Of a stretch of DNA of 64,000 bases, positions 43,051-64,000 are shown in pieces; position 1 is the first letter of the stretch; the number at the start of each line of letters is the position of its first letter. This DNA comes from Macrostomum lignano (taxonomy: Eukaryota). The notes under the pieces are model-generated. The model did not search any database, had not been told where the DNA came from, and worked only from the letters and a program-made list of their open reading frames with translations. The DNA lies in the NCBI GenBank assembly GCA_002269645.1, contig NIVC01002291.1, positions 124,001 to 188,000 of the forward strand, read 5' to 3'. Position numbers and translations under genes: made by a program.

Positions 43051-44397
43051 ATTCATTTTCAATGCAATCAGAATGAACAGCTAAAAATTGTAGGTTCGAA
43101 CCTATAGCTGCATGGGTATACTTCTTTAAATTGCATTCTTGCCGTTCCAGACCTAAAAAAATTGCATGACATAATGACTTCTCTTTTAAATTGTTCCTTC
43201 TTCTAACAAATCAATGTAATCAAAGGCAATAATGGAAAGGTTGTTTACCCCTAACTTCTTCTTTACAAATCAAAGGTAAGCAAAGGCAATGGAAAGGCTG
43301 TTTACTCCTAAACTATACCTGTCTTTATATGAGTCGTTGGAAACAAATTTTGCTCTAAGCAGGGGCCTAAATGAACAAGAACAAAATTTATCGATGATAT
43401 CACAGGCAACTTCCCCAATCCGAATGCTATTTTTTGGATTGAACCAATATTTTGAGAGAAAAACAAGCTATATCTACATGTAGCTATTAACCAAGTCCCA
43501 AACTACACTGACATGCATCATCTACTCAAGTTCAGGTCCTTCCATCCAGAGCACTCGTTTGGAGAGGAATCCACAGGTTCTCAGATTGGCAAGTTTATTT
43601 GACAAAAGATCCAACTTCTTTGAAGCAATCAATAATACCATTGACCCGGGACAGGGGAATTCCTAACAAGAGGATTTTAAAACTGGTTTCAGTACCAGCT
43701 AAAGGTACAAAATAGTTGCTCTCGGCCCACTGCCTCTTTGTACTAGTTGCTTTTAATTTGTAAGCCCTTGACCAGCTTCAAAGGGCCTGTCAACTTAAGC
43801 TCAAGTGGAGCTTAGTGGAGCCCTAAATTGGAGCCCGATTGCTGTAACCTATGTACTCAATGATATATACATGCACGTCATTCTGCTTACTGCAGTGACA
43901 CCCAGAAGCTGGATTTCGCAAAAAGGTGACAAAAATTGGACCATGAGATATAAGGAGAGTGTGACGTTGCCAGTTTAAGGTGGTCCCGAAAAGGGCCGTT
44001 GGACTGCTGTTTCTCTATAGTTTCAACCCTTCAGTTTCACCGTTCCAACTAAACTTTTCCATTTGTTTATTGCGACGTTTACTTGTAGTAGTGCCCAACG
44101 ATTTTGTGGCAATTTCTAATTCACTGTATATTTTGCTATCCTCTCTCGCGACCGTATAAAATTGGCACGATCAATAATTTCAAGTTCTCTCGCCAGCCAA
44201 TGAAAACTCTCCGTGTTTTACGCTACCCCCTTTTTGCGCTCTTTATTAACCCTCGCCTGGCGGGCTGGGGGTTTCACTCGTCCCTGTTCTTGTGTTCGGT
44301 GTTCTCTCTCCTTAGGCTTGTCCTCCGTCCCGTCTGGCTTGCCTAGCCTTGTCTAGCCTTGTTTTCCTTCTCTCTGTCTGGCTGCCTCGGGTCTACG

Positions 44398-44730
44398 ATG
44401 TTTGCCTGCCGGACGTTTGCCAGCCGACGTTTGCCTGCGGGACGTTTGCCAGCCGACGTTTGCCAGCCGACGTTTGCCAGCCGACGTTGGCCAGCGGGAC
44501 GTTTGCCAGCCGACGTTTGCCTGCGGGACGTTTGCCAGCCGGCGTTTGCCTGCGGGACGTTTGCCAGCCGACGTTTGCCAGCCGACGTTTGCCTGCGGGA
44601 CGTTTGCCTGCCGACGTTTGCCTGCTGGACGTTTGCCTGCGGGAAGTTTGCCAGCCGACGTTTGCCAGCGGGACGTTTGCCAGCCGACGTTTGCCAGCCG
44701 ACGTTTGCCTGCGGGACGTTTGCCAGCCGG
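44398..44730 (-). repeat. GGCAAACGTC-based repeat array, reverse orientation
   Basis: GACGTTTGCC units, the reverse complement of the array at 45545-46085. Confidence 0.92.
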
Positions 44731-45544
44731 ACAGTCGCAGGCGGCAATTGGTTAAATAAGTATGCCCTCTCTAGGCTTACAACTTGCATTTGAAAACTGT
44801 GGACATAGCACTAATAATTCCACTTTGCTGCCTACTAACTGCTATTAAATATACAGGTTACTACGCTCGTAACAAACTACTTAGAACTTAGAACGCTCTT
44901 CGTCTTATTGATATTTTAGGTAGGTTTTAGTAACATGCATGTATGTACCAAAGCAACTGATGTAACCAAAACTTTCCGAACTAGCAGAACCAAAGCGTCA
45001 CTGACAATAAAGTCAGTAAGAAGACGAGGCGTCTCAGAACTAAAACACTCAGAGTTGGCAATGACACGAAAGTGGTACAGTACTGGTAATTGATTTCAAG
45101 TTGTATTTCAGGTTATCCAACTCTTCTACCGCTTGCTAATCAGATCCACTTCGCGATTTCAGATAACCTAGCGTGGAGCTGGCACTGGCAACATACTGCA
45201 CTGTACAACAGTCTAGAACCCCAAGGAAACGGCATCTTCTACTTCTTTCTCGCATTCAAGTCAACTGTGATTCTGAGAAAGGGTAAGCTGCACTCCGAAG
45301 TTTTGAACAAGAAATAACAAACACAAAGACAACTGTACGTCCGGACGAAAATATTTTAATAACTAATTAAGAACAAACAGCAAATCAATGAATACTAAAT
45401 ATATTGGTAAAATTTGTTAGTTAATTATTTCGCCACTCAGCTGAAAATGGTGGGGCATACACGAAACTTTTTACGAGTATATATTTAGTTTTTATAATGT
45501 TACAACTGCTAAATATAGCATAAATATATATAGCTAAATATATA

Positions 45545-46085
45545 GCAGTTGGCTGGCAAATGTCGGCTGGCAAACGTCCCGCAGGCAAACGTCGGCTGGC
45601 AAACGTCGGCTGGCAAACGTCGGCTGGCAAACGTCCTGCAGGCAAACGTCCTGCAGGCAAACGTCCTGCAGGCAAACGTCCTGCAGGCAAACGTCGGCTG
45701 GCAAACGTCGGCTGGCAAACGTCCTGCAGGCAAACGTCCTGCAGGCAAACGTCCTGCAGGCAAACGTCCTGCAGGCAAACGTCGGCTGGCAAACGTCGGC
45801 TGGCAAACGTCCTGCAGGCAAACGTCCTGCAGGCAAACGTCGGCTGGCAAACGTCGGCTGGCAAACATCGGCTGGCAAACGTCGGCTGGCAAACGTCGGC
45901 TGGCAAATGTCGGCTGGCAAACGTCGGCTGGCAAACGTCCCGCAGGCAAACGTCCCGCAGGCAAACGTCGGCTGGCAAACGTCCCGCAGGCAAACGTCGG
46001 CTGGCAAACGTCGGCTGGCAAACGTCGACTGGCAAACTTCCCGCAGGCAAACGTCGGCTGGCAAACGTCCCGCAGGCAAACGTCG
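45545..46085 (+). repeat. GGCAAACGTC-based repeat array
   Basis: Tandem 14-15-nt units; shorter versions occur in each 1198-bp copy. Confidence 0.92.
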
Positions 46086-46312
46086 CTATCTCGGCTGCCT
46101 CGAGCCTCCTTATCTCACGCCACGGCTGACGCCAACCTCGCCACTGCTCATCTGCCTGCCTACTGCGTCTCACTGCCTTCACTGTGCTCATTGCCATTGC
46201 TCATCACGTTACTGTTCTGTTGTTGTATTAACGAACGCAGAAACAAGATGGATAATTATCCGGGCGCTCAGTGGCACCAAAAGAAGGGGACTTGGCCAAT
46301 AGGAGGGCGGCT

Positions 46313-46412
46313 CGTATATTTATGCACGCGGGGAAGGAAAGTTCTAGAAAGACCGGGGAAGGAAACTTCTGGAACTATGCGTAAACAAGTCCGCGGTGGA
46401 AGTTTCTAGAAA
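46313..46412 (-). promoter_or_regulatory. Heat-shock-type promoter: three HSEs plus a TATA-like box (repeated at +1198, +2396, +3594)
   Basis: GAAagTTCtaGAA (46337-46349), GAAacTTCtgGAA (46362-46374) and GAAgtTTCtaGAA (46399-46411) each match GAAnnTTCnnGAA; CATAAATATA on the minus strand at 46315-46324. Confidence 0.75.
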
Positions 46413-49400
46413 CGCTGTCCCCGAACTACGAACTACCCCTACGCATCGCGTGCCTTTGCAATACACAACAGTTACGACGCCATTGCATCATTCGTCTGCC
46501 ACTTGACTTCACATTCAAGTTATCTTCAAAAACCATTGTTGCAGCCGCCAGTGCCCAGAAAGCTATAGTTTGTGTATTGACAGTAATAACCAAGCCTAAT
46601 ATTGATACTACCAATAAAAACAACTACGGCAGTTCCTGCCTTTATCGCCAAGTGCTCCGCTACAAAATCCGCTTTACAAGAGTTGACTTCAACTTATTTT
46701 GAGACTACGACTCACTACAACTCTCGTCAAAACGGCCCTTTTAAGGGTCATAGCCATAGTTAGCCGCTACGCCAATAACGTGACAAGAGAACAAGCAACA
46801 GGAACAGGGGAGAGAACAGGGGGATAGTTAGGGACTCCAATTTATAAGATTAAGATGACAGGCCCTTTTATAATCTCAAAATAATCTCAAATTATAAAGT
46901 CAGTAAGAAGACGAGGCGTCTCAGAACTAAAACACTCAGAGTTGGCAATGACACGAAAGTGGTACAGTACTGGTAATTGATTTCAAGTTGTATTTCAGGT
47001 TATCCAACTCTTCTACCGCTTGCTAATCAGATCCACTTCGCGATTTCAGATAACCTAGCGTGGAGCTGGCACTGGCAACATACTGCACTGTACAACAGTC
47101 TAGAACCCCAAGGAACTTCTGGGACGCAGGCAAACGTCCCGCAGGCAAACGTCGGCTGGCAAACGTCCCGCAGGCAAACGTCGGCTGGCAAACGTCGGCT
47201 GGCAAACGTCGACTGGCAAACGTCGACTGGCAAACTTCCCGCAGGCAAACGTCGGCTGGCAAACGTCCCGCAGGCAAACGTCGCTATCCCGGCTGCCTCG
47301 AGCCTCCTTATCTCACGCCACGGCTGACGCCAACCTCGCCACTGCTCATCTGCCTGCCTACTGCGTCTCACTGCCTTCACTGTGCTCATTGCCATTGCTC
47401 ATCACGTTACTGTTCTGTTGTTGTATTAACGAACGCAGAAACAAGATGGATAATTATCCGGGCGCTCAGTGGCACCAAAAGAAGGGGACTTGGCCAATAG
47501 GAGGGCGGCTCGTATATTTATGCACGCGGGGAAGGAAAGTTCTAGAAAGACCGGGGAAGGAAACTTCTGGAACTATGCGTAAACAAGTCCGCGGTGGAAG
47601 TTTCTAGAAACGCTGTCCCCGAACTACGAACTACCCCTACGCATCGCGTGCCTTTGCAATACACAACAGTTACGACGCCATTGCATCATTCGTCTGCCAC
47701 TTGACTTCACATTCAAGTTATCTTCAAAAACCATTGTTGCAGCCGCCAGTGCCCAGAAAGCTATAGTTTGTGTATTGACAGTAATAACCAAGCCTAATAT
47801 TGATACTACCAATAAAAACAACTACGGCAGTTCCTGCCTTTATCGCCAAGTGCTCCGCTACAAAATCCGCTTTACAAGAGTTGACTTCAACTTATTTTGA
47901 GACTACGACTCACTACAACTCTCGTCAAAACGGCCCTTTTAAGGGTCATAGCCATAGTTAGCCGCTACGCCAATAACGTGACAAGAGAACAAGCAACAGG
48001 AACAGGGGAGAGAACAGGGGGATAGTTAGGGACTCCAATTTATAAGATTAAGATGACAGGCCCTTTTATAATCTCAAAATAATCTCAAATTATAAAGTCA
48101 GTAAGAAGACGAGGCGTCTCAGAACTAAAACACTCAGAGTTGGCAATGACACGAAAGTGGTACAGTACTGGTAATTGATTTCAAGTTGTATTTCAGGTTA
48201 TCCAACTCTTCTACCGCTTGCTAATCAGATCCACTTCGCGATTTCAGATAACCTAGCGTGGAGCTGGCACTGGCAACATACTGCACTGTACAACAGTCTA
48301 GAACCCCAAGGAACTTCTGGGACGCAGGCAAACGTCCCGCAGGCAAACGTCGGCTGGCAAACGTCCCGCAGGCAAACGTCGGCTGGCAAACGTCGGCTGG
48401 CAAACGTCGACTGGCAAACGTCGACTGGCAAACTTCCCGCAGGCAAACGTCGGCTGGCAAACGTCCCGCAGGCAAACGTCGCTATCCCGGCTGCCTCGAG
48501 CCTCCTTATCTCACGCCACGGCTGACGCCAACCTCGCCACTGCTCATCTGCCTGCCTACTGCGTCTCACTGCCTTCACTGTGCTCATTGCCATTGCTCAT
48601 CACGTTACTGTTCTGTTGTTGTATTAACGAACGCAGAAACAAGATGGATAATTATCCGGGCGCTCAGTGGCACCAAAAGAAGGGGACTTGGCCAATAGGA
48701 GGGCGGCTCGTATATTTATGCACGCGGGGAAGGAAAGTTCTAGAAAGACCGGGGAAGGAAACTTCTGGAACTATGCGTAAACAAGTCCGCGGTGGAAGTT
48801 TCTAGAAACGCTGTCCCCGAACTACGAACTACCCCTACGCATCGCGTGCCTTTGCAATACACAACAGTTACGACGCCATTGCATCATTCGTCTGCCACTT
48901 GACTTCACATTCAAGTTATCTTCAAAAACCATTGTTGCAGCCGCCAGTGCCCAGAAAGCTATAGTTTGTGTATTGACAGTAATAACCAAGCCTAATATTG
49001 ATACTACCAATAAAAACAACTACGGCAGTTCCTGCCTTTATCGCCAAGTGCTCCGCTACAAAATCCGCTTTACAAGAGTTGACTTCAACTTATTTTGAGA
49101 CTACGACTCACTACAACTCTCGTCAAAACGGCCCTTTTAAGGGTCATAGCCATAGTTAGCCGCTACGCCAATAACGTGACAAGAGAACAAGCAACAGGAA
49201 CAGGGGAGAGAACAGGGGGATAGTTAGGGACTCCAATTTATAAGATTAAGATGACAGGCCCTTTTATAATCTCAAAATAATCTCAAATTATAAAGTCAGT
49301 AAGAAGACGAGGCGTCTCAGAACTAAAACACTCAGAGTTGGCAATGACACGAAAGTGGTACAGTACTGGTAATTGATTTCAAGTTGTATTTCAGGTTATC

Positions 49401-51094
49401 CAACTCTTCTACCGCTTGCTAATCAGATCCACTTCGCGATTTCAGATAACCTAGCGTGGAGCTGGCACTGGCAACATACTGCACTGTACAACAGTCTAGA
49501 ACCCCAAGGAACTTCTGGGACGCAGGCAAACGTCCCGCAGGCAAACGTCGGCTGGCAAACGTCCCGCAGGCAAACGTCGGCTGGCAAACGTCGGCTGGCA
49601 AACGTCGACTGGCAAACGTCGACTGGCAAACTTCCCGCAGGCAAACGTCGGCTGGCAAACGTCCCGCAGGCAAACGTCGCTATCCCGGCTGCCTCGAGCC
49701 TCCTTATCTCACGCCACGGCTGACGCCAACCTCGCCACTGCTCATCTGCCTGCCTACTGCGTCTCACTGCCTTCACTGTGCTCATTGCCATTGCTCATCA
49801 CGTTACTGTTCTGTTGTTGTATTAACGAACGCAGAAACAAGATGGATAATTATCCGGGCGCTCAGTGGCACCAAAAGAAGGGGACTTGGCCAATAGGAGG
49901 GCGGCTCGTATATTTATGCACGCGGGGAAGGAAAGTTCTAGAAAGACCGGGGAAGGAAACTTCTGGAACTATGCGTAAACAAGTCCGCGGTGGAAGTTTC
50001 TAGAAACGCTGTCCCCGAACTACGAACTACCCCTACGCATCGCGTGCCTTTGCAATACACAACAGTTACGACGCCATTGCATCATTCGTCTGCCACTTGA
50101 CTTCACATTCAAGTTATCTTCAAAAACCATTGTTGCAGCCGCCAGTGCCCAGAAAGCTATAGTTTGTGTATTGACAGTAATAACCAAGCCTAATATTGAT
50201 ACTACCAATAAAAACAACTACGGCAGTTCCTGCCTTTATCGCCAAGTGCTCCGCTACAAAATCCGCTTTACAAGAGTTGACTTCAACTTATTTTGAGACT
50301 ACGACTCACTACAACTCTCGTCAAAACGGCCCTTTTAAGGGTCATAGCCATAGTTAGCCGCTACGCCAATAACGTGACAAGAGAACAAGCAACAGGAACA
50401 GGGGAGAGAACAGGGGGATAGTTAGGGACTCCAATTTATAAGATTAAGATGACAGGCCCTTTTATAATCTCAAAATAATCTCAAATTTTATCAACCTGCC
50501 GTACTGCAAACAATTGTATAGTAATCAACAACAGCAACAAGATATTTGCATGCCGGCGCGAAAGGTCAAAAAGAATATACATAAAGATCACCGCGAACAA
50601 AATTATTCGTAAAAGCATCGAGTTCTCAGCTATGTCAGAGTCAGAGGAATGACCTGCAACTTGGTACGAATGAAGTGCTACCTAGCTTATCCTCTTAAAG
50701 TCGCGACTACCTCTATACAGTACTACACAGTATGTGCAGGCGCTTGTTGGTCCGACCAGTCCAGTGCAGCTATATAACTTGTAGCGGTGTTGAAAAAATA
50801 AGGCGTGGGGTGGTGGGTTCTTAGGTAATTTGATTTATCGCGGAATTTTCTAGAATTGCAATTCATGCTACTATACAAACGAGTTGCCAAAATTACGCTT
50901 ATGCACATATTTAAGTAAAAAAATGCTTTTTTAACTTTTTAATTAGTATTTAAAACTCTAGTATACTAGCTAAGGTGAGTTTTAACGTAATAAAATTATT
51001 CCTTTAGTATTAGAATTGTTATATTAAGTAGTGGTTTATATCGCTTTCAGATTCAAACAGCATCATCTTAAGTAGAGTTACAGCTGATTGATAG

Positions 51095-53940: not shown

Positions 53941-54604
53941 ACCCAACAAACTGATGCACCAATAAATACCAATATTGGTCCATGAGAACTCACTACCAAG
54001 TAGCTGATCCACCTGCTGGCTCATACGATTGGCATCAACACAGAGTCATATATGCAATATATGACCATATTGTCCATAATAGTTTGTATAAAATTTCTCT
54101 TATCTTTTATTATTCATGCTTATAATAGTCAACCCTCAATGACATTATAAAATGTGTATGACAGACCATAGGATGGTCAAAATCTATTATATATTACCCA
54201 AGGACAACTTAAGTAGTAGGACGCAACACTCGCATATTGTGTAATTTGTATTGGAGGCCTGGTCTTCACATATATGTAATTCTCAACTAGTTGCACGTAG
54301 AAAGCTAATTTTTTTGATGTTAGGTCCAGAATTTTGTTCTTCGTTAAAATGTAAGTAATAAAATAGTAGAGTACATGTATAAGCAGCGTACAGTTAAGTA
54401 CATTGAAAACAACTCAATTTTGTGCAATTTAAAAATATGCGAAATTTTCTTTAGAAATTTGTTAGTCTGTCACAATTCCTAGTCAATAGCAAAAATGAGT
54501 TTTTAGTTTGTAAACTAATAATCTCATTAAGCAAGTATAAAATAAAACAGTTTATGTATTATAGAAAATGTCACTGTCAAATGCCATTGGTTTATTATTA
54601 TGAG

Positions 54605-56809
54605 TGATGTAACCGCCCTTGTCGCCTGTCCGCTCCGTAGAGAGACGAACGCATGACTAGAGGGGGCAATGACCGTAGGCTGCCTATGACCGGGCAATGA
54701 CCTGACGGACCTCCAGCACCAGACTGTCCCGCCCACATGATTAGTAGCTTTGGTAGCGCTTCGTGACCAGAGGGCCAAGGACCCACATGGACCCCACCTG
54801 TAGCCAAGGTGCAATAGTTGGTCACTCGGTCATAGTATGACCGAGTGGCTGCCACCACTCTATGTGACCTGGCGCACCTGGATCTTTCTACCAGACCTCT
54901 CGAGGCTAGAGCCCCGCCTGGATTGGTTACCAGGGGATTCAGGCTAACAGGGGAGACGCATGCAGCCGAGTACAGGGACTCTGCTTGGGGCATGATCGGG
55001 AACTCTGGGCTCAATCCTGGAGGATTTCTCAGCAGGGGATCCTTTGTGGCTGTGAGCGAGGCTGACTTGCGACTTTGATTACTAAGAGTAGTATGAGGCG
55101 AACATGTACTGTCTACAGTTTAGATTGCTCAGGGCGAAGGGACGCGTTAGCATGGGGTTGCAACCTTCCTACTGCCATGCTGTGCCAAGTCTCGCTAATC
55201 CCTCTACTGCACGCACACGCGGCCCCGCAGCACGCACTCACAGGCGGGCTTTGCACAGGGAGAGGCCATTAGCTTACCCAAACTTCCTTATGCTTTGCCA
55301 CCCCGGGAGAAAGGCTTAGCAAGCCATGAGTGAAATGATGGTGAAAGATTGAATAATGATGAAGTTAGTTAATAGTTAATAATTAGGCCCTTAGGCGAAT
55401 AATCAGGCAATTAGGCGGCTTCACTATTGAGTAAAATACAGCAAAAGATACGGTATCACAATTGGCTCAGCTCTCTAATCAGACAATGGAAAATAGGCAA
55501 ACCCCGGATAAGCAAAGGCAATTAGAGCACAAATTAGTAACAGGAACTTACCGGCAGCTGCACAGAGAGAGAGAGAGGCGGAGTGACCGGTGGCGGCTGT
55601 AGGCTGCAATCAGGCAGACGGTGAAGCGGCGATGCGCTGGAGCGACGAGGCGCTGATGTGGATCAGGCAATGCTGATGATGCTGGGCGGTGTCAGACCGC
55701 TGGCCGATAGGCGAGCTCACTTGGGGAGCTAAGGATAACTTGGCGGTAACAGACCGCGGACCGGCAGGGACTCGTCTTATAGACGAATGGGTCAGAACTC
55801 AATCTGACGGCAAGTCCAAAGAAGGACGAGGAGAGGAAAAAGTTGAGGATTCTCATGCCGAAATCGCTTCCTTTTATAGACCTCACAGCCGCCTCCTCAA
55901 GGTCGTTACCATGGCTCCCTCTCTCTGATTGGCTGCCGGCAGAATGACGTCAGAATGAGTAATGATGAGAAGCATGAGACCGGCATAGCAACATGAGAAA
56001 TAGGGAAATTGCGCAATCCGGAGGTGGGGTGGGGGGATAATTGGCGCAGCGGGAGGTCGCGAAAGTGTTGCGCAAGCAAACATTGAGAACAATAGGGCTG
56101 GGGTCGAGAACAAAGGAATTGGAAATCGGGGATAATTGGGGAAAACTGAGAACAATGGAAAAGTAAACATTGGAGAAAAGGTGATAATTAGGTGCGAAAA
56201 CGAGAACAAAAGAAAGAGAAAATCGGAGAAAATGTGATAATTGGTGGGGTCGAGAGAACAAAAGAATCAAAAACGAGAACAATAGAAGCAGAGGTGGGGT
56301 GGGTGTCGCATGAGAAATTTGGGAGGAGAACAATAGCATGAGAAAAGGTTGCGCAAGAGAGGGGGATGAGTCATCGATGAGTCATCGGGGGGAAGAAGGG
56401 GTCACACGACTTGCGTCACCGTTTGGGAGTTTGGGAGGGGATGGGGAGACGGTGAGCACACAAAATACTGTAAGTAGACACAGAGAAGGAGGGGACAGCG
56501 CAGGAAAAAAAGTGCAGAGAGAGATAAAAAGAGGGGGGAAAGGGAAAGTACAGGAAGAATAGGGCGGAAACAGAAGAGATAGGGTAGAGGGGGAGGTACA
56601 GAAAGGGGTAGGGGGCTCCGGAAAGGCAGGTGTGGCGGCAGGAGAGACGGGACCAAGGCAGCAGGAGGGGTGCAGCAGAGCGGGAGTCTCCAGGCCCGGT
56701 CGGAGACCTGGCCGAGTCTCGACAGCTCTGTGCAGAGGGTGCACGGGATAGGAGGCACTTTCGAAAAAGTTCCCATGCCCTATCCCGCGACCAGAGCGTG
56801 GTTACATCA
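54605..56809 (-). repeat. 3' LTR, 2205 bp
   Basis: TGATGTAACC...GGTTACATCA 10-bp terminal inverted repeat; PPT-like GGCAGTGGGGGTG (minus strand) at 56810-56822. Confidence 0.85.
55872..55932 (-). promoter_or_regulatory. LTR promoter (TATAAAA plus upstream CCAAT)
   Basis: Minus-strand TATAAAA at 55878-55872 and CCAAT about 50 bp upstream. Confidence 0.55.
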
Positions 56810-57413
56810 CACCCCCACTGCCTTTTGTGACGGAACTGGTTCCGTCATCATCACTGCCCAACATGGAACCACACAGACGGGAGCGGGATCTCAACCGAAC
56901 GTGAAATCACAGAATTAACAAACCGCGAGCGGGAATGGAAAAAGGCGATAAAATAGAGGGGATAGCAATAAATTCACAAAACGAGATACATAGGTTGAAG
57001 TGCAATACAGAATTTCAAAAATTTCAACTGTTGCTGTGGCTAAAGTGGGAGGGGGGAAACACAGACAGCGCAATAGTAGGGAGAAAAATAGCGAATTGTC
57101 AACAATAAATTATCATAATTGGATAGAAGCGCAGCTGGGAAAGAGGAAACGGGGAAGGGTGAGGGAAGTGGGGAAAAAGAAGGGGGGGAAGGGTTGCTAG
57201 CACACAGCCAAGGGCAGAGCCTCGGGGAGAATGACAATTACACAGGGGAAAAATACTAATGCAGCGCAGTAAATTAATAAGCTAATTTCGCCGGGAGTTC
57301 AACCGCACGGAGGCCTAGCGTCCTTGAAGGCTCGGACCCCGCTTCAGCCAGTCAGAGGGCTTCGGGGCGATCGGTTGTAGGCTGGGAGGCGCCGCGCCGT
57401 GCGCTGGCCACTG

Positions 57414-57420
57414 TATAAAA
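57414..57420 (+). promoter_or_regulatory. TATA box of a putative antisense transcript
   Basis: TATAAAA in a GC-rich context about 100 bp before a consensus donor CG|GTAAGT. Confidence 0.5.
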
Positions 57421-57459
57421 GGCGCCACTGATAACGGGAGCCGGCTGCCTGCAACCTAC

Positions 57460-58747
57460 ACGGAGTCGCAGTTTCCAACCAAGGCACTCAGCGCGATTTT
57501 CCAAACTATACAACTACTCGGTAAGTCCCATCACCAACCTGATTTCCTTTCGCCTATACGTTAAACGAAATCCACCCACTTGCCATGCCTTTCATATTAA
57601 ACTGAGCCAACTGTAGTAGTACAATATGTCTTTTCTTACGGTACTAAGAGTGAGAGGCCAACACAGACTTATTTTTATGAATTTGATTGACGCACAACAA
57701 AGACTCGTATATTATTAGTAAAAGGTGGCATATTAGAAAAACAAGTTTTTATTGGAAAAATAGTGAAATTAAAAATAGTGGCACACACAGAAACACACAC
57801 ACAGGCCTCATTCACATCTCCGAAACCCTCAAAAACTTAACAGCCGAAAGAGTTTGAAAGAGGAATTAATCATTAATTTGACTGCCACCAGTTTGATGTA
57901 CTATTATAAAAGAGAAAGGGGAACCTACCACCACCTTGGCGCATTACTAAAGAAAAGAAAAGGAGGATCCGCCACCATTTTGAGAGAGGTTGCTAGGGAA
58001 AACTGCCACCAATTGTACATTAACAGGGAAGAGAAAGAGGGAACCCGTCACCACTAAGAGTGGATTGCCCGGGGAAACTGCCACCATTTGCCCTTCTACC
58101 AGAGGAGAGGAAGACGAAAAACTGCCATCACTTAGAGGTGTATCATTAAAAGAAGGCGGGGAAGAAGGCTACCACTACTTGATCACCTAGAGCTCAAGGG
58201 GAGGAGAGGGAATGAAGAAAGGAAGAAACCCCCAGGAAGGCCACTACCACACGCCATAAAGTTAAAATCCCCATCTATCTACATCCTAATACCCGGCTAG
58301 TTCCCTACTTCTATTTCATCCCTTAAATTCTCATTTTCAGGATTCCGGCCGCTAGTAGCCGAGCCCATCCTTGAAGAGGAGTCCGACTACGAAGCGCCCG
58401 AAGACAGCCATTCAGAGCCGGACGCCCCCTCTGATTCTGGGCCGGCTGCGCCATCTGGTGACATAGGCGCCGCGGCTCCCGGGCCATGCGACCGCCGGGC
58501 CGCCAGCGAACCAGCGTCCGGGGCCGGTTGGCATCCGGTACCACCGCCGTTGTCAGCCCGAGCGCACGCTCCGCCGCCGGTCGCCGCGGTGACGCCCGTG
58601 GCTGCCGCTCCACAGCCCTTGCCAACCCCTGTGGTGGAGACCGACGGCTCCTGGCATTTGGTCGTGCTGTCGACGGCCCTAATAGCCGGTCTCACAATGC
58701 ACTGGCTACTGCTCTTGGAGCTATTTCTGCGGCTTCCCAACTGCTGA
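57460..58747 (+). CDS. Putative antisense spliced gene (57460-57520 joined to 58341-58747), about 155 aa, acidic/Pro-Ala-rich with a C-terminal hydrophobic segment; no ATG (ACG at 57460 assumed)
   Basis: Donor GTAAGT at 57521, acceptor CATTTTCAG at 58340, phase-1 join open to TGA at 58745-58747. Confidence 0.45.
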
Positions 58748-59331
58748 TGCTGGTGGTTCTTAATGCTTACTTACTAATTCTGAACTATCTGTCCCCATAA
58801 CTTGACTTTAATTACTTACCTGACTTTACATTGACTAAACCACTGGCCTACTCTAAACTAATTGCTGCCCCATTTGCCTGATAAACTTAATTACATTGAA
58901 TGCCCCCCTATTGCCTCATTGAAACCAATTAAAAGTTTCCCAAAATCGGACTTTCACAAAGTGTGAACAAACACACGAAATCAGACCTAAAGGTGCTAAT
59001 TTCCTACGGTCCCAGACTTCCATTGTTCCCAGAAAATCTTAAACAGCGGGGCAGGACCTCCTGTGGAGCAGACCCATAGAAATTTTACTAGTTTCCAAGT
59101 TAATATTTACTGATAGGGAATTAACGCATACTGTACGGGCCTAATTTTCGAGCTAAAATCTTAGATATTTAAACAACACCAACGAGCACGAGGTCACAAC
59201 ATAAATTCGAGTAATAGAGGGCATACGTAAATACGCGAAAAGCGGTCTCCAACGGGGCAACACGAGCAAAATTTCGACACGCGAATCGGGGGGGGAATTA
59301 AGCAATCACTGGCTAGCTACCGATCTGTTAC

Positions 59332-59846
59332 TCAGCGGGGGTCGAATGGGAGACTCACACCTAGCAAGTAAACCTTTTCTGTTCGATAGTCTATGATAGC
59401 ATGCGTACTGGCTAGAAAAGCACTACCCAGGAGGGAAACTGCTGCTGAATTGCCAACGACCAGAAAGAGGATTCTCACCTCTTCTAGCCCAATAACTGCT
59501 GTTAGGGTGGCCTGGCCTAGCATCTCTAATTCATTGCCCGTGTAGGACACGGCCTTCACACATGGGGGCTCCAGGGCCTCCACACTCTGTCCGGTAATTT
59601 TAGTAAAGTCTTTGACTGTTAGCAAAGACAGCGCACTGCCCCATCTACCAGGAGGCGGGTGGGAACATTCTCAATTGGCAACTCTACAACAATATCTCTC
59701 CCGCGTTGTCCTCTAGCTGGTCTTGGCTGATAGAAATCGGGTACCTTCTCAAATCTAAACTTCTTGCTGGGCGGACGTGGCAGGTTAAGCTGGGCCCTAG
59801 AGAGGGAACGGGGCTGAGTTCGGGCCGGGCCATTCAGCCCTCCCAC
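59332..59846 (-). pseudogene. Retroviral-type aspartic protease, frameshifted at the active site
   Basis: VELPIENVPTRLLVDGA followed by a frameshift into LLTVKDF...LLGSAFLASTHAIIDY (LLGxDFL-like motif). Confidence 0.7.
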
Positions 59847-59972
59847 GGGTTTCCCGAACCCGGGGCTCTTCAGGCGTGGAAGGAGGAGGCATCAGAGCTT
59901 GCGCGCGCAGCTGGGCGAGCCTCTCCTGCCTCTCCCTGGTAGCCTCGTCTAACATATCTCTGCCCCACTCCT

Positions 59973-61276
59973 CTAAATCTTGCCTATGGCGATCAGTGGC
60001 GCACGAAGCTGCAATTGCTGCTGCTGCACACCCGGCGCCGGCGGCGTGGGCGCCTCCTGAATTGCAAGCGGCGGGGGCTGGGGTTGGCGCCAGTTCCTAC
60101 TGCTATTAGAGCCGCCCTGCCCCTGCCTCCAGTTCCTGTTGGGAGTGGCGGGGCGAGGGGGCCTCATCTGCTGGGGCAGCTGGGCAACAGACTCTGCTGT
60201 CGCCTTCATAGTTTCATTGAGCTGCACCAGCTGGTTGCGCAGATCTTTTTGCGTTTGCTCTAGCGCGCCCAACCTCTCTTGCATCTCTGATAGGCCGTCA
60301 CCGTCCTCCTCCGTCTCGTCAGCTTCCTGGTTCACCATCCTGACCCACTTGCGAGGGGGCCTGGGTGGCTGCTGAGGTTGCAGACGGACTTCGGTGCGGG
60401 ACTCAGACCTGGGCGGGCCACTACTGTCCCATTTCCCGGCTAAGTCTGCGGCTTCTAACAGGGCTTGCTGCTGTTCTAACACCTGCTCAATTGTCTGCCA
60501 GCGACGGCTCAACAGATCTTGTCTGACCTGGCGGGGGAGCTTAGCGTGTTCCAAGTAGGTGTACACGATTTCTTGTTCTCTCTGCTCACCCTGAATCTGA
60601 GGAAACATGGCCGTTATCTGAGATCTTATCATAGCAGCAAAAGCACTATGTGATTGGCCGGGTTTCTGGCTCAGATTCTTCAGCTTATTTCTCTTAGCCA
60701 GATCAGTGTTGGCCTCGCCCAACTGCTCTCCTAATCTAGATACGAACTGCTCAAAGGGCAATTGCCCGTCCAATCCTAAGGCTAAGTTCTGAAATTCACC
60801 TGGGAGGTGCGAGATGAGCACCTGCTTCCTAGCCTGATCTCCTACAGTTCTCTCCGCGTCCAGCTTGTAGATCATTCTCTCTACCCATTGCACAAAACAG
60901 TGTTCGCCGGAGAGAACTTTTCTACGTAGATTTTCGGCCTCTGGGCGTCTTGGCCCATGTTTAGCTGGTTAAACGCATTGGCTATAGCGGCAACTAAGTC
61001 TCCTAGCTGCGGGACTGCCTGAGGAGGATTCTGGGCTGCGTCCGGGGGAGCAGCGGCGGCTGCTGCGCCACCCTGATTGGGAGCGGGAGCTGCTACTCCT
61101 TCATCTGGTTCCTCAACTACTACTGCTTCTGGAGGCTGAGGGACCTGGTTACCAGCGGCTGCGGCCATTGCGGCTGCGGGGGCGGCAACTGCTGGGGTGT
61201 CAGCGGCCGAGGGTGGTTGACCAGGGGCGTCTGCGCACACAGCTTCTACGACCCTATCTCCACGCGCCCGTGACAT
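59973..61276 (-). pseudogene. Gag-like protein with a frameshift near 60893
   Basis: KIYVEKFSP / QWVERM..LISHL..FEQFVSRL..LKQ-like KNLSQKPGQSHSAFAAMI retrotransposon gag motifs; coiled-coil C-terminal part. Confidence 0.75.
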
Positions 61277-63625
61277 GTGAATGCCGGATAGCTGGGGGAG
61301 TACCCACCACCGGGAAGGAAAAGAAAAGAAAACCGGGCAACTACAGGTAAAGACGCGAAAAGTTGATCCGAAACACACAAACACACTCACACACACACAA
61401 ACACAGACAAAACCCACACACTTGCGGCGTCGAAGAAAACAAATTGAAAAACGGGTGGCTCCACATAATTCCATTTAGGCAGTCCTAACGGCTTCACTCG
61501 GCAAAGCACACTGACTCAAACTGCGGCTACCACTACCAGTTGTCTATGGCACATCCTGACAGGGAAAAATTGGCTATTCAGAGAGACTTGACCTTCATTT
61601 TGCGGCCATGCTAGGGAACCCAAATGCCGACCGTAAACGGACTTACGGCACCTGTACAAATTCTCCCCTAGGGTTGCGCGCCGGACCCCATTTCCTTAAG
61701 AAAGCTACTACGAAGAAGCGTTGGCGCCTGGACCCAAAAACCCAAGTGGCGGGAGCAATCCCCATGGAGGTCCTCCCACTTTACTGCCCTTGCACAGCCG
61801 GAAAACCGTCGGAGTCCAGTGGGGCTTCCACCTCAGGACTACCAATCTTGTACACGCAGCTTCACAAAAGGCGGGAATCCAGCTCCCCTACGTCTAGCAG
61901 AATCCACAAAAACCAAGACCTCCCCTTTCTGTTCAGAGCGAAGGCGCGCAGCGGGAGTCCAGACTAAACTGTCCCCGAAGTTTTCAGGTTAGGCGGATTA
62001 CAAGCCTGAAACTCTCGCCCGCTTTCCTAGGATAAACAGACCTAAGTGAGTATCTTCCTGAAATGCTTGCCCCTCCGATACTCCACCTTTGCTGCAGCTC
62101 GAAATAGCATACTTGGGACCTTTATCTGATGGCGGAGAAGTCCTACAGTTGTCAGCCTCTCCACTTTACTGTACTTGAACGCCCGTTCTACAGGAGACAG
62201 CGGTACCTCCATCTAGGTTATTCCAAGTTGCCAGAGACGTCAACACCGTCTTATTGACCTTGCGGGGCACTGGGGTGGCACTCTATGTACCGGGGCTTTA
62301 CATTAGGGGACTGCATGCAACCCTGCGTCTAAGCGCTTAGTGGGCTGCAGTGGCCAGAGGGGAAAAGAGTTGCGCAATAGCGCCTTCCTGGGCCAGGCTG
62401 ACAAGTCGGGCAGGAGCGCCGTTCTACCGGGTCGGGCTGATTGGCACCCCCACCTCCCCTATCAGACTGACAGCAGGGGGGAGGAATTACTAAAGGAGGA
62501 GAATGCAGCAGGAAACATTACGAGATCACTGGGGGCCACCAGACTTCCAGTACACCATTCCAATACTCACTGAACTCCACTATCAATAGGAGACTACGGG
62601 ATCTACTATTTCCAGCCACTGCACCAGCCCAAATGCAACCAAAGCAGTTACTACCGGGTCTGCAATGCAGTGGGGAGAGTCAGCAGACACGTTGGGATCG
62701 AATCCCAGCCATGAAGGCACCAGGGGTTACCGCAGAATTCAGGTCCGGGCTGATCGCAGGTATTCCATAGGAGGTGACACTTTTTTTAGCCCGAGATTTT
62801 TGAGTCACACTGATACCCTACAGAGATACAATCACACCGCTATTCCCATTCCTGCGAGACTTTGGTATCCCCCAATGTTTCCAAGGCCATGACTACTGCT
62901 TCCCTTACTATGCATATATAGCGAGTTCCCCATAGCCCTTGATAACTGTTCATTCTAATGGACAAACAAAACACGCTCCGGTCTCTACGCATTTCTAGGA
63001 TTAACTGAGCGATCAGGGAGAGCGACTGTTACACTCCCCCGAGTAAAAGAAAGAGGTAGGACAAAGGAAAGAAATGCTTCGCTTCCAGCTTCCCTGTGCT
63101 TGCGTGATGAGGCTTCCGTACCTGGCTGGCTGTCCACCTCAACACTCACACAGTTTCGCTGTAGGCTAGGCGAGAGAAAGAAAGGGAGGGGAAATAAAGC
63201 ATATTACCATGAAATAGAAAGTGAGTCCGGAAAATTCACTTTCGCAGTTCTTCACACACTCCGTTACCAGGTAGCTATTCTGATTGTAATCAAATCCGCT
63301 CGTCTACCACTTCACACTTTCTAGCGCTGAAACTGATCGGCTAAATTAATTTTAAATTGAATCAGGGGCTTTTGGCGAATGAATGAATCTGGAAATTTCG
63401 AATGAATTGAACGAATTCGCAGCCCGAAAAATTTGAAAAGTTACATTAATATTTTTGGACTTTGTTGCCTCACGCCATGGGAGAAGAGAATGACGATTGG
63501 CGATTTTTACGATTGGTAGATTTAGACATGGCACTCTTTGCGCTTCGGCCACCATTCTGAGGGATGCCACAGGTGCGCTTGTCACATCTAAACCACCAGT
63601 CCGAAACTCAGCGCTGTTTGCACCA

Positions 63626-63644
63626 AATCCCACCGCTGCCACCA
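63626..63644 (-). other. Primer-binding site complementary to the tRNA-Leu(AAG/TAG) 3' end
   Basis: TGGTGGCAGCGGTGGGATT located 3 nt inside the LTR; matches the recalled tRNA-Leu 3' end ...AATCCCACCGCTGCCA-CCA. Confidence 0.8.
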
Positions 63645-63647
63645 TTT

Positions 63648-64000
63648 TGATGTAACCGCCCTTGTCGCCTGTCCGCTCCGTAGAGAGACGAACGCATGAC
63701 TAGAGGGGGCAATGACCGTAGGCTGCCTATGACCGGGCAATGACCTGACGGACCTCCAGCACCAGACTGTCCCGCCCACATGATTAGTAGCTTTGGTAGC
63801 GCTTCGTGACCAGAGGGCCAAGGACCCACATGGACCCCACCTGTAGCCAAGGTGCAATAGTTGGTCACTCGGTCATAGTATGACCGAGTGGCTGCCACCA
63901 CTCTATGTGACCTGGCGCACCTGGATCTTTCTACCAGACCTCTCGAGGCTAGAGCCCCGCCTGGATTGGTTACCAGGGGATTCAGGCTAACAGGGGAGAC
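63648..64000 (-). repeat. 5' LTR (truncated by the window end)
   Basis: Matches 54605-54957. Confidence 0.9.

What the first reader, a model, noticed from the sequence alone, without database searches (positions are those of the whole stretch)
57881..58255. Array of PBS/LTR-junction mimics with about 40-bp periodicity
Seen: about nine degenerate CTGCCACCA-like cores separated by variable purine-rich spacers (57881, 57924, 57969, 58002, 58044, 58078, 58121, 58169, 58242). The first reads CTGCCACCA-GTT-TGATGTA, versus CTGCCACCA-TTT-TGATGTA at the true PBS-LTR junction (63636-63654). The one at 57969 reads GCCACCATTTTGA. On the genomic RNA these are TGGTGGCAG sites complementary to the tRNA-Leu CCA end. 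Inference: extra tRNA or 3'-tRF binding sites (decoys against tRF silencing, packaging/dimerisation signals or alternative priming sites), or fossil junction duplications from template switching.
Basis: partly seen in the sequence, partly recalled or inferred. Interest (0 to 1): 0.7.

Follow-up and report, generated by a model that had tools for sequence, protein, structure and literature searches.

The report
Repeated half primer sites in retrotransposon
A young jumping gene that lacks its own copying enzyme carries near its tail a worn tandem repeat of its "repeat end plus half a tRNA primer site"; these copies likely act as spare, non-essential tRNA docking sites, and one insertion bears what is likely the scar of one being used.

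Summary
The array is real: 8 in-register cores plus a decayed ninth, against 0.6 expected. It is not repeats with unrelated spacers. The spacers are homologous, so it is an old 33-47 bp minisatellite whose unit holds the LTR end (CA + 2-3 nt) and only the first 9 of 18 PBS bases. It lies in the 3' non-coding region of a Gag-protease-only Ty3/Gypsy family, inside a spliced antisense intron. The partner family with the same LTRs, which encodes RT/integrase but no detectable protease, lacks it (10 of 10). A sister pair carries one conserved copy of its own junction; ten other Gypsy elements carry none. One insertion has a deletion at unit 6 that reads as the first 12 PBS bases, a likely tRNA or PBS copying scar. 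Against function: cores are no better conserved than spacers among 44 young copies, and pairing is weak. A tRF decoy is unlikely. The scan noted repeated junctions in other genomes, in leaders or LTRs. Best reading: junction-derived repeat serving as optional tRNA docking sites, about 0.5.

The parts
57882..58249 (-). Degenerate minisatellite of 33-47 bp units: [CA + 2-3 nt][9-nt half PBS][pyrimidine tract][mixed tail]; 8 cores plus a decayed ninth
57882..57900 (-). Last unit, 18/19 match to the LTR-end/PBS junction; absent in diverged copy C100
57969..57977 (-). Unit 6 core; in insertion G000:C237/C2392 it is the left break of a 1.94-kb deletion whose junction reads as the first 12 PBS bases
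63627..63644 (-). True 18-nt PBS for tRNA-Leu(AAG/TAG), 3 nt after the LTR end
63648..64000 (-). End of the 2.2-kb 5' LTR (runs past the window); holds a further 10-nt PBS-like copy at 63892-63900, predicted to lie in a hairpin
54605..56809 (-). 3' LTR, 99.7% identical to the 5' LTR; 4-bp target duplication at 54601-54604
56810..56826 (-). Polypurine tract
59973..61276 (-). Gag-like gene; reads with frame breaks in this copy, open in many others
59370..59700 (-). Aspartic protease region, in two frames in this copy; no RT, RNase H or integrase in the element
57414..57520 (+). Predicted antisense promoter (TATA 57414) and first exon; donor GT at 57521; shared with the Pol partner family
   Evidence: sequence; this donor was not seen used
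57521..58340 (+). Antisense intron that contains the array; acceptor AG ends at 58340
   Evidence: the acceptor is used in contigs of two studies, from a donor in the cargo-bearing subfamily
58341..58747 (+). Antisense coding exon, 134 codons, Pro/Ala-rich with a hydrophobic C-terminus
   Evidence: pN 0.051 vs pS 0.237 against copy C100; no Pfam hit

Best explanation
The array is an old tandem repeat that likely grew from one copy of the element's own LTR-end/half-PBS junction, and its cores likely serve as weak, non-essential docking sites for the CCA end of tRNA-Leu on the genomic RNA. Shown: repeat structure, junction match, unit gain and loss, place in a Gag-protease-only family. Inferred: a piece of the junction was copied into the 3' region by a reverse-transcriptase template switch, then amplified and trimmed by slippage. 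Inferred: in the particle, Gag chaperones tRNA-Leu onto 9-10 nt cores, which could raise the local supply of primer and of the RT that this RNA must borrow from its Pol-encoding partner. Occasionally a core would prime or receive tRNA/PBS-derived DNA, leaving scars like the unit-6 deletion. Selection on any single core is weak.
For: Spacers are homologous (score 13.8 vs 9.8+/-1.1, 0 of 1000 layout-keeping shuffles; 37-76% pairwise identity), while cores are 82-86% alike between units. CA precedes 6 of 8 window cores (p=0.009) and 6 of 6 in C100. The array persists with 5, 6 and 8 units in three diverged lineages. All 45 recovered arrays keep at least 2 perfect or G:U-compatible cores. The sister pair B/E has one copy of its own junction (2-nt spacer; here 3-nt) in the 3' region in 10 of 11 copies read, with 17 of 18 columns invariant against 70 of 111 in the flanks (p=0.007, 9 carriers). 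None of 10 other Gypsy elements has a junction copy in its 3' region. In C237/C2392 a deletion starting in unit 6 carries 4 filler bases absent from both parents that complete a 12-nt match to the tRNA 3' end; none of 51 other parsed unit-6 alleles reads so. 4 of 7 core changes in the window are G:U-compatible with tRNA (p=0.048).
Against: Among 44 young copies cores vary as much as spacers (7/72 vs 12/224, p=0.27), and pair-breaking alleles are the majority in two units (42 of 44 and 33 of 41). Diverged comparisons are not significant (6/54 vs 39/193, p=0.16; 4/45 vs 26/152, p=0.24; 5/45 vs 36/149, p=0.06). Duplexes with the tRNA 3' 18-mer are -12 to -21 kcal/mol against -39 for the PBS, and ordinary internal 24-mers reach -21.6 (5th percentile -16.1); the cost of opening the acceptor stem is not counted. 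The Pol partner C lacks any copy (10 of 10), as does young copy B_C380. The scar is one insertion seen on two contigs (same flank) and could be templated by the PBS rather than by tRNA. Units were delimited by their cores, which inflates core identity. The B/E test is post hoc on few lineages.
Confidence: 0.5

Rival explanations
1. Neutral fossil: a junction fragment was copied once, expanded as an ordinary minisatellite in a repeat-prone genome, and is decaying. Any tRNA binding is incidental.
For: No core-over-spacer conservation in 44 copies; frequent unit loss; absent from the Pol partner; the 9-mer is no more common in repeats than permuted controls; TRF finds many minisatellites in the window.
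Against: Cores 82-86% alike while spacers are near saturation; array kept in three diverged lineages; separately placed, conserved junction copy in the sister pair.
Confidence: 0.3
2. The cores are protein-binding sites unrelated to priming: a DNA enhancer or insulator array for the nearby antisense or cargo promoters, or intronic splicing signals of the antisense transcript.
For: The array lies in a spliced antisense intron about 90 nt from the acceptor and just upstream of a cargo gene with a TATA-like box. The same 9-mer recurs in U5 of both LTR types. The gypsy insulator is a recalled analogy, not tested.
Against: Does not explain the LTR-end bases in each family's own register or the PBS-like filler. 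No binding data.
Confidence: 0.13
3. The cores sponge 3'-tRNA fragments away from the true PBS.
For: Multiple sites complementary to the CCA end on the genomic RNA. 3'-tRF repression can be seed-independent (PMC12853362, passages).
Against: Only the 3' 9 nt pair; the distal half matches 0-2 of 9. tRF3a is reported as highly mismatch-sensitive and 3'-UTR sites as seed-dependent (PMC7472051, passages). Binding is far weaker than at the PBS.
Confidence: 0.04
4. The excised antisense intron, which carries complements of the U5-PBS junction, pairs with and blocks the PBS.
For: The intron is spliced and its last unit is complementary to the junction over 18 of 19 nt.
Against: The commonest core changes (positions 7 and 8) would break antisense-PBS pairs while keeping tRNA wobble pairs. 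No stable intron RNA was shown.
Confidence: 0.03

Closest known systems
Second (3') tRNA-binding site of Drosophila gypsy (Gabus et al. 2006, PMC1635307; abstract, one Results section and Discussion read)
   Same: An extra short (11-nt) primer-tRNA site near the 3' end of the genomic RNA, loaded by the NC-like Gag region and dispensable for cDNA synthesis.
   Different: Gypsy's site is single and pairs with the anticodon/TpsiC stems, so one tRNA bridges both ends. Here the sites are multiple, pair with the same CCA end as the PBS, include LTR-end bases, and no spacer set pairs with the tRNA body better than shuffles.
Bipartite PBS of yeast Ty3 (PMC5371799; passages read)
   Same: tRNA-binding sequence in the 3' untranslated part.
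   Different: Ty3's 3' part completes a short 5' PBS and is needed for priming. Here the 5' PBS is a full 18-mer and the array is dispensable in the partner family.
Antisense additional ORFs between pol and the 3' LTR in plant Gypsy elements: Grande, RIRE2, Retand (PMC7264820; parts 1-2 of 3 read)
   Same: 3' region with an antisense gene and its own promoter. The cited Retand paper's title mentions an amplified tandem repeat.
   Different: The parts read mention no PBS-derived repeat.
Wheat Fatima subfamilies with divided labour (PMC6097303; passages read)
   Same: One subfamily with RT/integrase, others with gag and protease, proposed to complement each other.
   Different: Plant case. Here two such pairs in one animal genome, each pair sharing 2-kb LTRs; Gag/protease sides are 39% alike and Pol sides 54% alike.
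Drosophila micropia (antisense RNA confirmed in PMC6797199 and PMC7264820 passages; 3' tandem repeats and a second PBS are recalled only, the primary paper was not held)
   Same: Gypsy-group element with antisense transcription.
   Different: Its antisense RNA is reported as non-coding. Its repeats could not be compared.

Membership tests
Ty3/Gypsy LTR retrotransposon (host element) | TG..CA LTRs, target duplication, tRNA PBS, PPT | tested here: met
Ty3/Gypsy LTR retrotransposon (host element) | RT-RNase H-integrase order in pol | tested here: met
   Met in LTR-sharing partner C (Pfam RVT_1, RT_RNaseH, rve). Family A itself has no RT/IN (0 of 3 copies).
Functional primer binding site | Complementary to the tRNA 3' CCA end | tested here: met
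   9-10 nt only
Functional primer binding site | Full-length pairing like the element's own 18-nt PBS | tested here: not met
   distal half 0-2 of 9
Functional primer binding site | Adjacent to an LTR and defining the integrated end | tested here: not met
   56 of 56 LTR-PBS junctions continue into the normal leader. 53 of 76 hits to the last unit's CA continue into the array; the other 23 are near the control count of 17 and their context was not read.
Functional primer binding site | Primes or receives tRNA-derived DNA in vivo | tested here: inconclusive
   one insertion with a 12-nt tRNA-complementary junction; a PBS-templated double switch is not excluded
Gypsy/Ty3-type 3' tRNA site | Pairs with a tRNA region other than the acceptor end | tested here: not met
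   spacer-tRNA body duplexes not better than shuffles (z -0.8 to +2.4)
Gypsy/Ty3-type 3' tRNA site | NC-chaperoned tRNA annealing | not testable with these tools
   needs an in vitro assay
3'-tRF target or decoy site | Extended or seed-side complementarity to the 18-22 nt fragment | tested here: not met
Minisatellite | Homologous head-to-tail units with copy-number variation | tested here: met
   too degenerate for TRF
TRIM tandem array (TA-TRIM; definition recalled) | Each unit holds LTR, PBS and PPT | tested here: not met
   units hold about 10 nt or less of LTR end and a pyrimidine, not purine, tract on the sense strand
Insulator or enhancer array | Protein binding or enhancer blocking | not testable with these tools
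   no data

The most novel reading that the evidence does not exclude
In a split animal retrotransposon (Gag-protease RNA plus Pol RNA sharing LTRs), the RNA that lacks RT carries a bank of primer-junction mimics that load tRNA-Leu and RT onto it, a cis-acting lure for an enzyme supplied in trans. The unit-6 scar is a record of such priming.
Probability: 0.2. Interest if true: 0.75.

Novelty: new variant of a known kind. Interest (0 to 1): 0.5.

Why it matters
How RNAs without RT capture RT and primer from a partner is poorly understood. A repeated half-PBS confined to the Gag-protease half of a split element, with a single copy in the sister pair and none in the Pol partner, gives a natural series for testing whether extra tRNA 3'-end sites help. 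The split Gag-protease / Pol pairs themselves, seen twice in one animal genome, may matter more than the array. If the array is neutral it is still a clear example of a minisatellite seeded by a reverse-transcription junction.

Tried and rejected
Genome-wide excess of the 9-mer in minisatellites (1489 vs 43 for the reversed pattern) was rejected: the reversed control contains CpG, and two fair permutations give 1348 and 1620. Coding role of the array: no open frame spans it on either strand in the window copy. Routine plus-strand landing on the mimics: 0 of 56 LTR junctions fused to array sequence. Elements ending at the mimic CA: no excess over control. Ty1/Ty3-like extra boxes in the spacers: none. 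A complementary partner for the junction in the sense RNA: best -19.6 kcal/mol, not compelling. Sense-strand splicing into the cores: no such joint listed, but only contigs were available, so this is no evidence of absence. No run was on record as RNA; the laid runs are guessed RNA. Homology between the accessory ORFs of A and B: none by blastp (the A antisense exon was in the wrong frame, so that pair is untested). Pfam found nothing for Gag, protease, cargo or antisense exon. Literature searches for a second, additional or PBS-like repeated primer site gave 0, 0 and 2 unrelated papers; micropia searches gave no passage on its repeats; searches for split elements gave 0, 41 and 1 papers, of which one was read. 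The cargo protein could not be looked up in the Atlas. No supplements were read.

Full report
Observation. The unit at 57882 matches the LTR-PBS junction at 18 of 19 bases. The 9-mer alone is weak evidence: another stretch of the window has more hits, and genome-wide it is as common in tandem repeats as two permuted controls.

Setting. The array lies in a young minus-strand LTR element (family A): 2.2-kb LTRs at 99.7% identity, a 4-bp target duplication, an 18-nt PBS exactly complementary to the genome's tRNA-Leu(AAG/TAG), and a PPT. The 6.8-kb interior holds gag and protease but no RT or integrase. Family C shares LTRs, leader, the start of gag and the last 830 nt at about 97% and encodes RT, RNase H and integrase with no detectable protease. 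Families B and E form a second such pair. A similar division of labour was proposed for wheat Fatima (PMC6097303, passages). Earlier notes of this scan call the host a flatworm (not checked). The array is in the A-specific segment, 1.1 kb before the 3' LTR; 10 of 10 C copies lack it.

Opposite strand. The array sits in an intron of an antisense gene. Contigs of two guessed-RNA runs from two studies skip 1053 nt with GT..AG ends, from a donor in the cargo-bearing subfamily to the acceptor that corresponds to 58340 (2 of 4 runs laid). The exon behind it is under purifying selection (pN 0.051, pS 0.237). The window copy's own donor at 57521 was not seen joined.

Anatomy. On the genomic RNA each unit reads CA plus 2-3 nt, the first 9 PBS bases, a pyrimidine tract and a mixed tail. 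Spacers are homologous beyond what layout gives (13.8 vs 9.8, 0 of 1000 shuffles), and arrays differ by whole units: 10 of 45 recovered lack a 75-nt pair, and diverged copies C100 and C513 have 6 and 5 units. It is therefore a degenerate minisatellite. CA precedes 6 of 8 cores (p=0.009), the distal PBS half is absent (0-2 of 9), and cores are 82-86% alike between units while spacers are 37-76% alike. Units were cut at their cores, which favours this contrast.

Comparison across families. Of 17 elements scored for a copy of their own 17-nt junction in the 3' region, both A copies, E and two of three B copies had one (1-3 mismatches, reached by 0 of 200 shuffles). C, one B copy and ten other Gypsy elements had none; two of those ten use tRNA-Leu, and one has a lone 9-mer without LTR-end context. 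The B/E copy is single, has that pair's 2-nt spacer rather than A's 3-nt one, lies at a different place relative to the cargo gene, is present in 10 of 11 copies whose 3' region was read (one more was truncated), and is better conserved than its flanks (17/18 vs 70/111 invariant columns, p=0.007; nine carriers, B_C305 left out because its upstream flank is not homologous).

Conservation within A. Among 44 young copies (C100 set aside) 7 of 72 core columns and 12 of 224 spacer columns vary (p=0.27), and two units carry pair-breaking majority alleles. Against diverged copies cores differ less than spacers, but not significantly (p=0.16, 0.24, 0.06); these three comparisons are not independent. 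Four of seven core changes in the window keep G:U pairs with tRNA (p=0.048), three of five in C100 (p=0.076).

A likely scar. One insertion, present on contigs C237 and C2392 with the same flank, has a 1.94-kb deletion from unit 6 into the end of the cargo gene. BLAST leaves four filler bases. With them the junction reads as the first 12 PBS bases, which neither parent supplies: 51 other parsed unit-6 alleles break off at position 8 or 9 or earlier, one locus was not parsed, and six cargo loci agree with each other. The other five non-array deletion junctions listed do not start at a core. The simplest account is priming at unit 6, plus-strand read-through into the tRNA and a jump to a short homology. 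In Ty3 plus-strand synthesis is reported to copy 12 nt of tRNA (PMC5371799, passage), though that length may be yeast-specific (recalled). A double switch through the true PBS, using the 13-nt likeness with unit 6, is not excluded. It is one event.

What was not found. No LTR end is fused to array sequence (0 of 56), and there is no excess of elements ending at the last unit's CA. Duplexes with the tRNA 3' end are -12 to -21 kcal/mol against -39 for the PBS and overlap the background tail; spacers do not pair with the tRNA body.

Verdict. Origin from the junction followed by tandem amplification is well supported (about 0.85). That the cores are kept as optional tRNA docking sites is my best single mechanism (0.5), ahead of neutral decay (0.3), protein binding (0.13), tRF decoy (0.04) and antisense blocking (0.03). 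It works most like the dispensable 3' tRNA site of Drosophila gypsy (PMC1635307) but fails that type's defining pairing geometry, so it is a variant, not a member. Ten literature searches in the held library showed no description of such a 3' array; subscription papers, including the primary micropia work, were out of reach. This scan has noted repeated LTR-end/PBS junctions in other genomes, in leaders or LTRs (e1-7360011, e1-9523320, e1-7217699; unchecked), so junction duplication looks recurrent; no look-alike of this stretch was listed. Interest 0.5.

Noticed in passing
window 54605-64000 with G000:C936, C2925 (family C); C151, C380 (B); C3095, C1757 (E): Two apparent split retrotransposon pairs. 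A and B encode Gag plus protease only (no RT/IN in 3 and 5 copies). C and E share their LTRs, leaders and 3' ends at 92-98% and encode short Gag-RT-RH-IN with no protease by an HMM that finds it in S, G, J and P.
   Followed up: partly
L151:581-1942 (-), G000:C650: A subfamily carries an extra 2-kb cassette after the array, with a TATA-like box and a 454-codon open frame under purifying selection (pN 0.12, pS 0.66 vs C100), no Pfam hit. The antisense donor lies inside its 5' end and joins in frame with the antisense exon, so the two genes overlap.
   Followed up: partly
window 63892-63900 and 63546-63554; B/E LTR about 240 nt before its end: Further PBS-like 9-11-mers in U5 at a similar distance from the LTR end in both LTR types, and one in the leader 90 nt after the PBS.
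   Followed up: partly
window 55552 and about 61291 (- strand): Predicted splice donor in the LTR and acceptor just before gag; splicing would remove the PBS from the mRNA. No such joint was listed.
   Followed up: partly
G000:C4958, C546, C3414: Pairs of PBS junctions 9.03-9.05 kb apart, suggesting tandem copies that share an LTR.
   Followed up: no
G000:C254:570000-571700, C514 (families F/D): Gypsy elements with a third ORF whose start looks like a J-domain by eye; many other families also have a third ORF.
   Followed up: no
L036:8428-8964 (-): Family A protease has D-G-G where family B has D-S-G at the catalytic motif.
   Followed up: no
window 45500-50500: A unit of about 1198 bp repeated several times with 14-bp sub-repeats and inverted copies at 44396-44732.
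   Followed up: no
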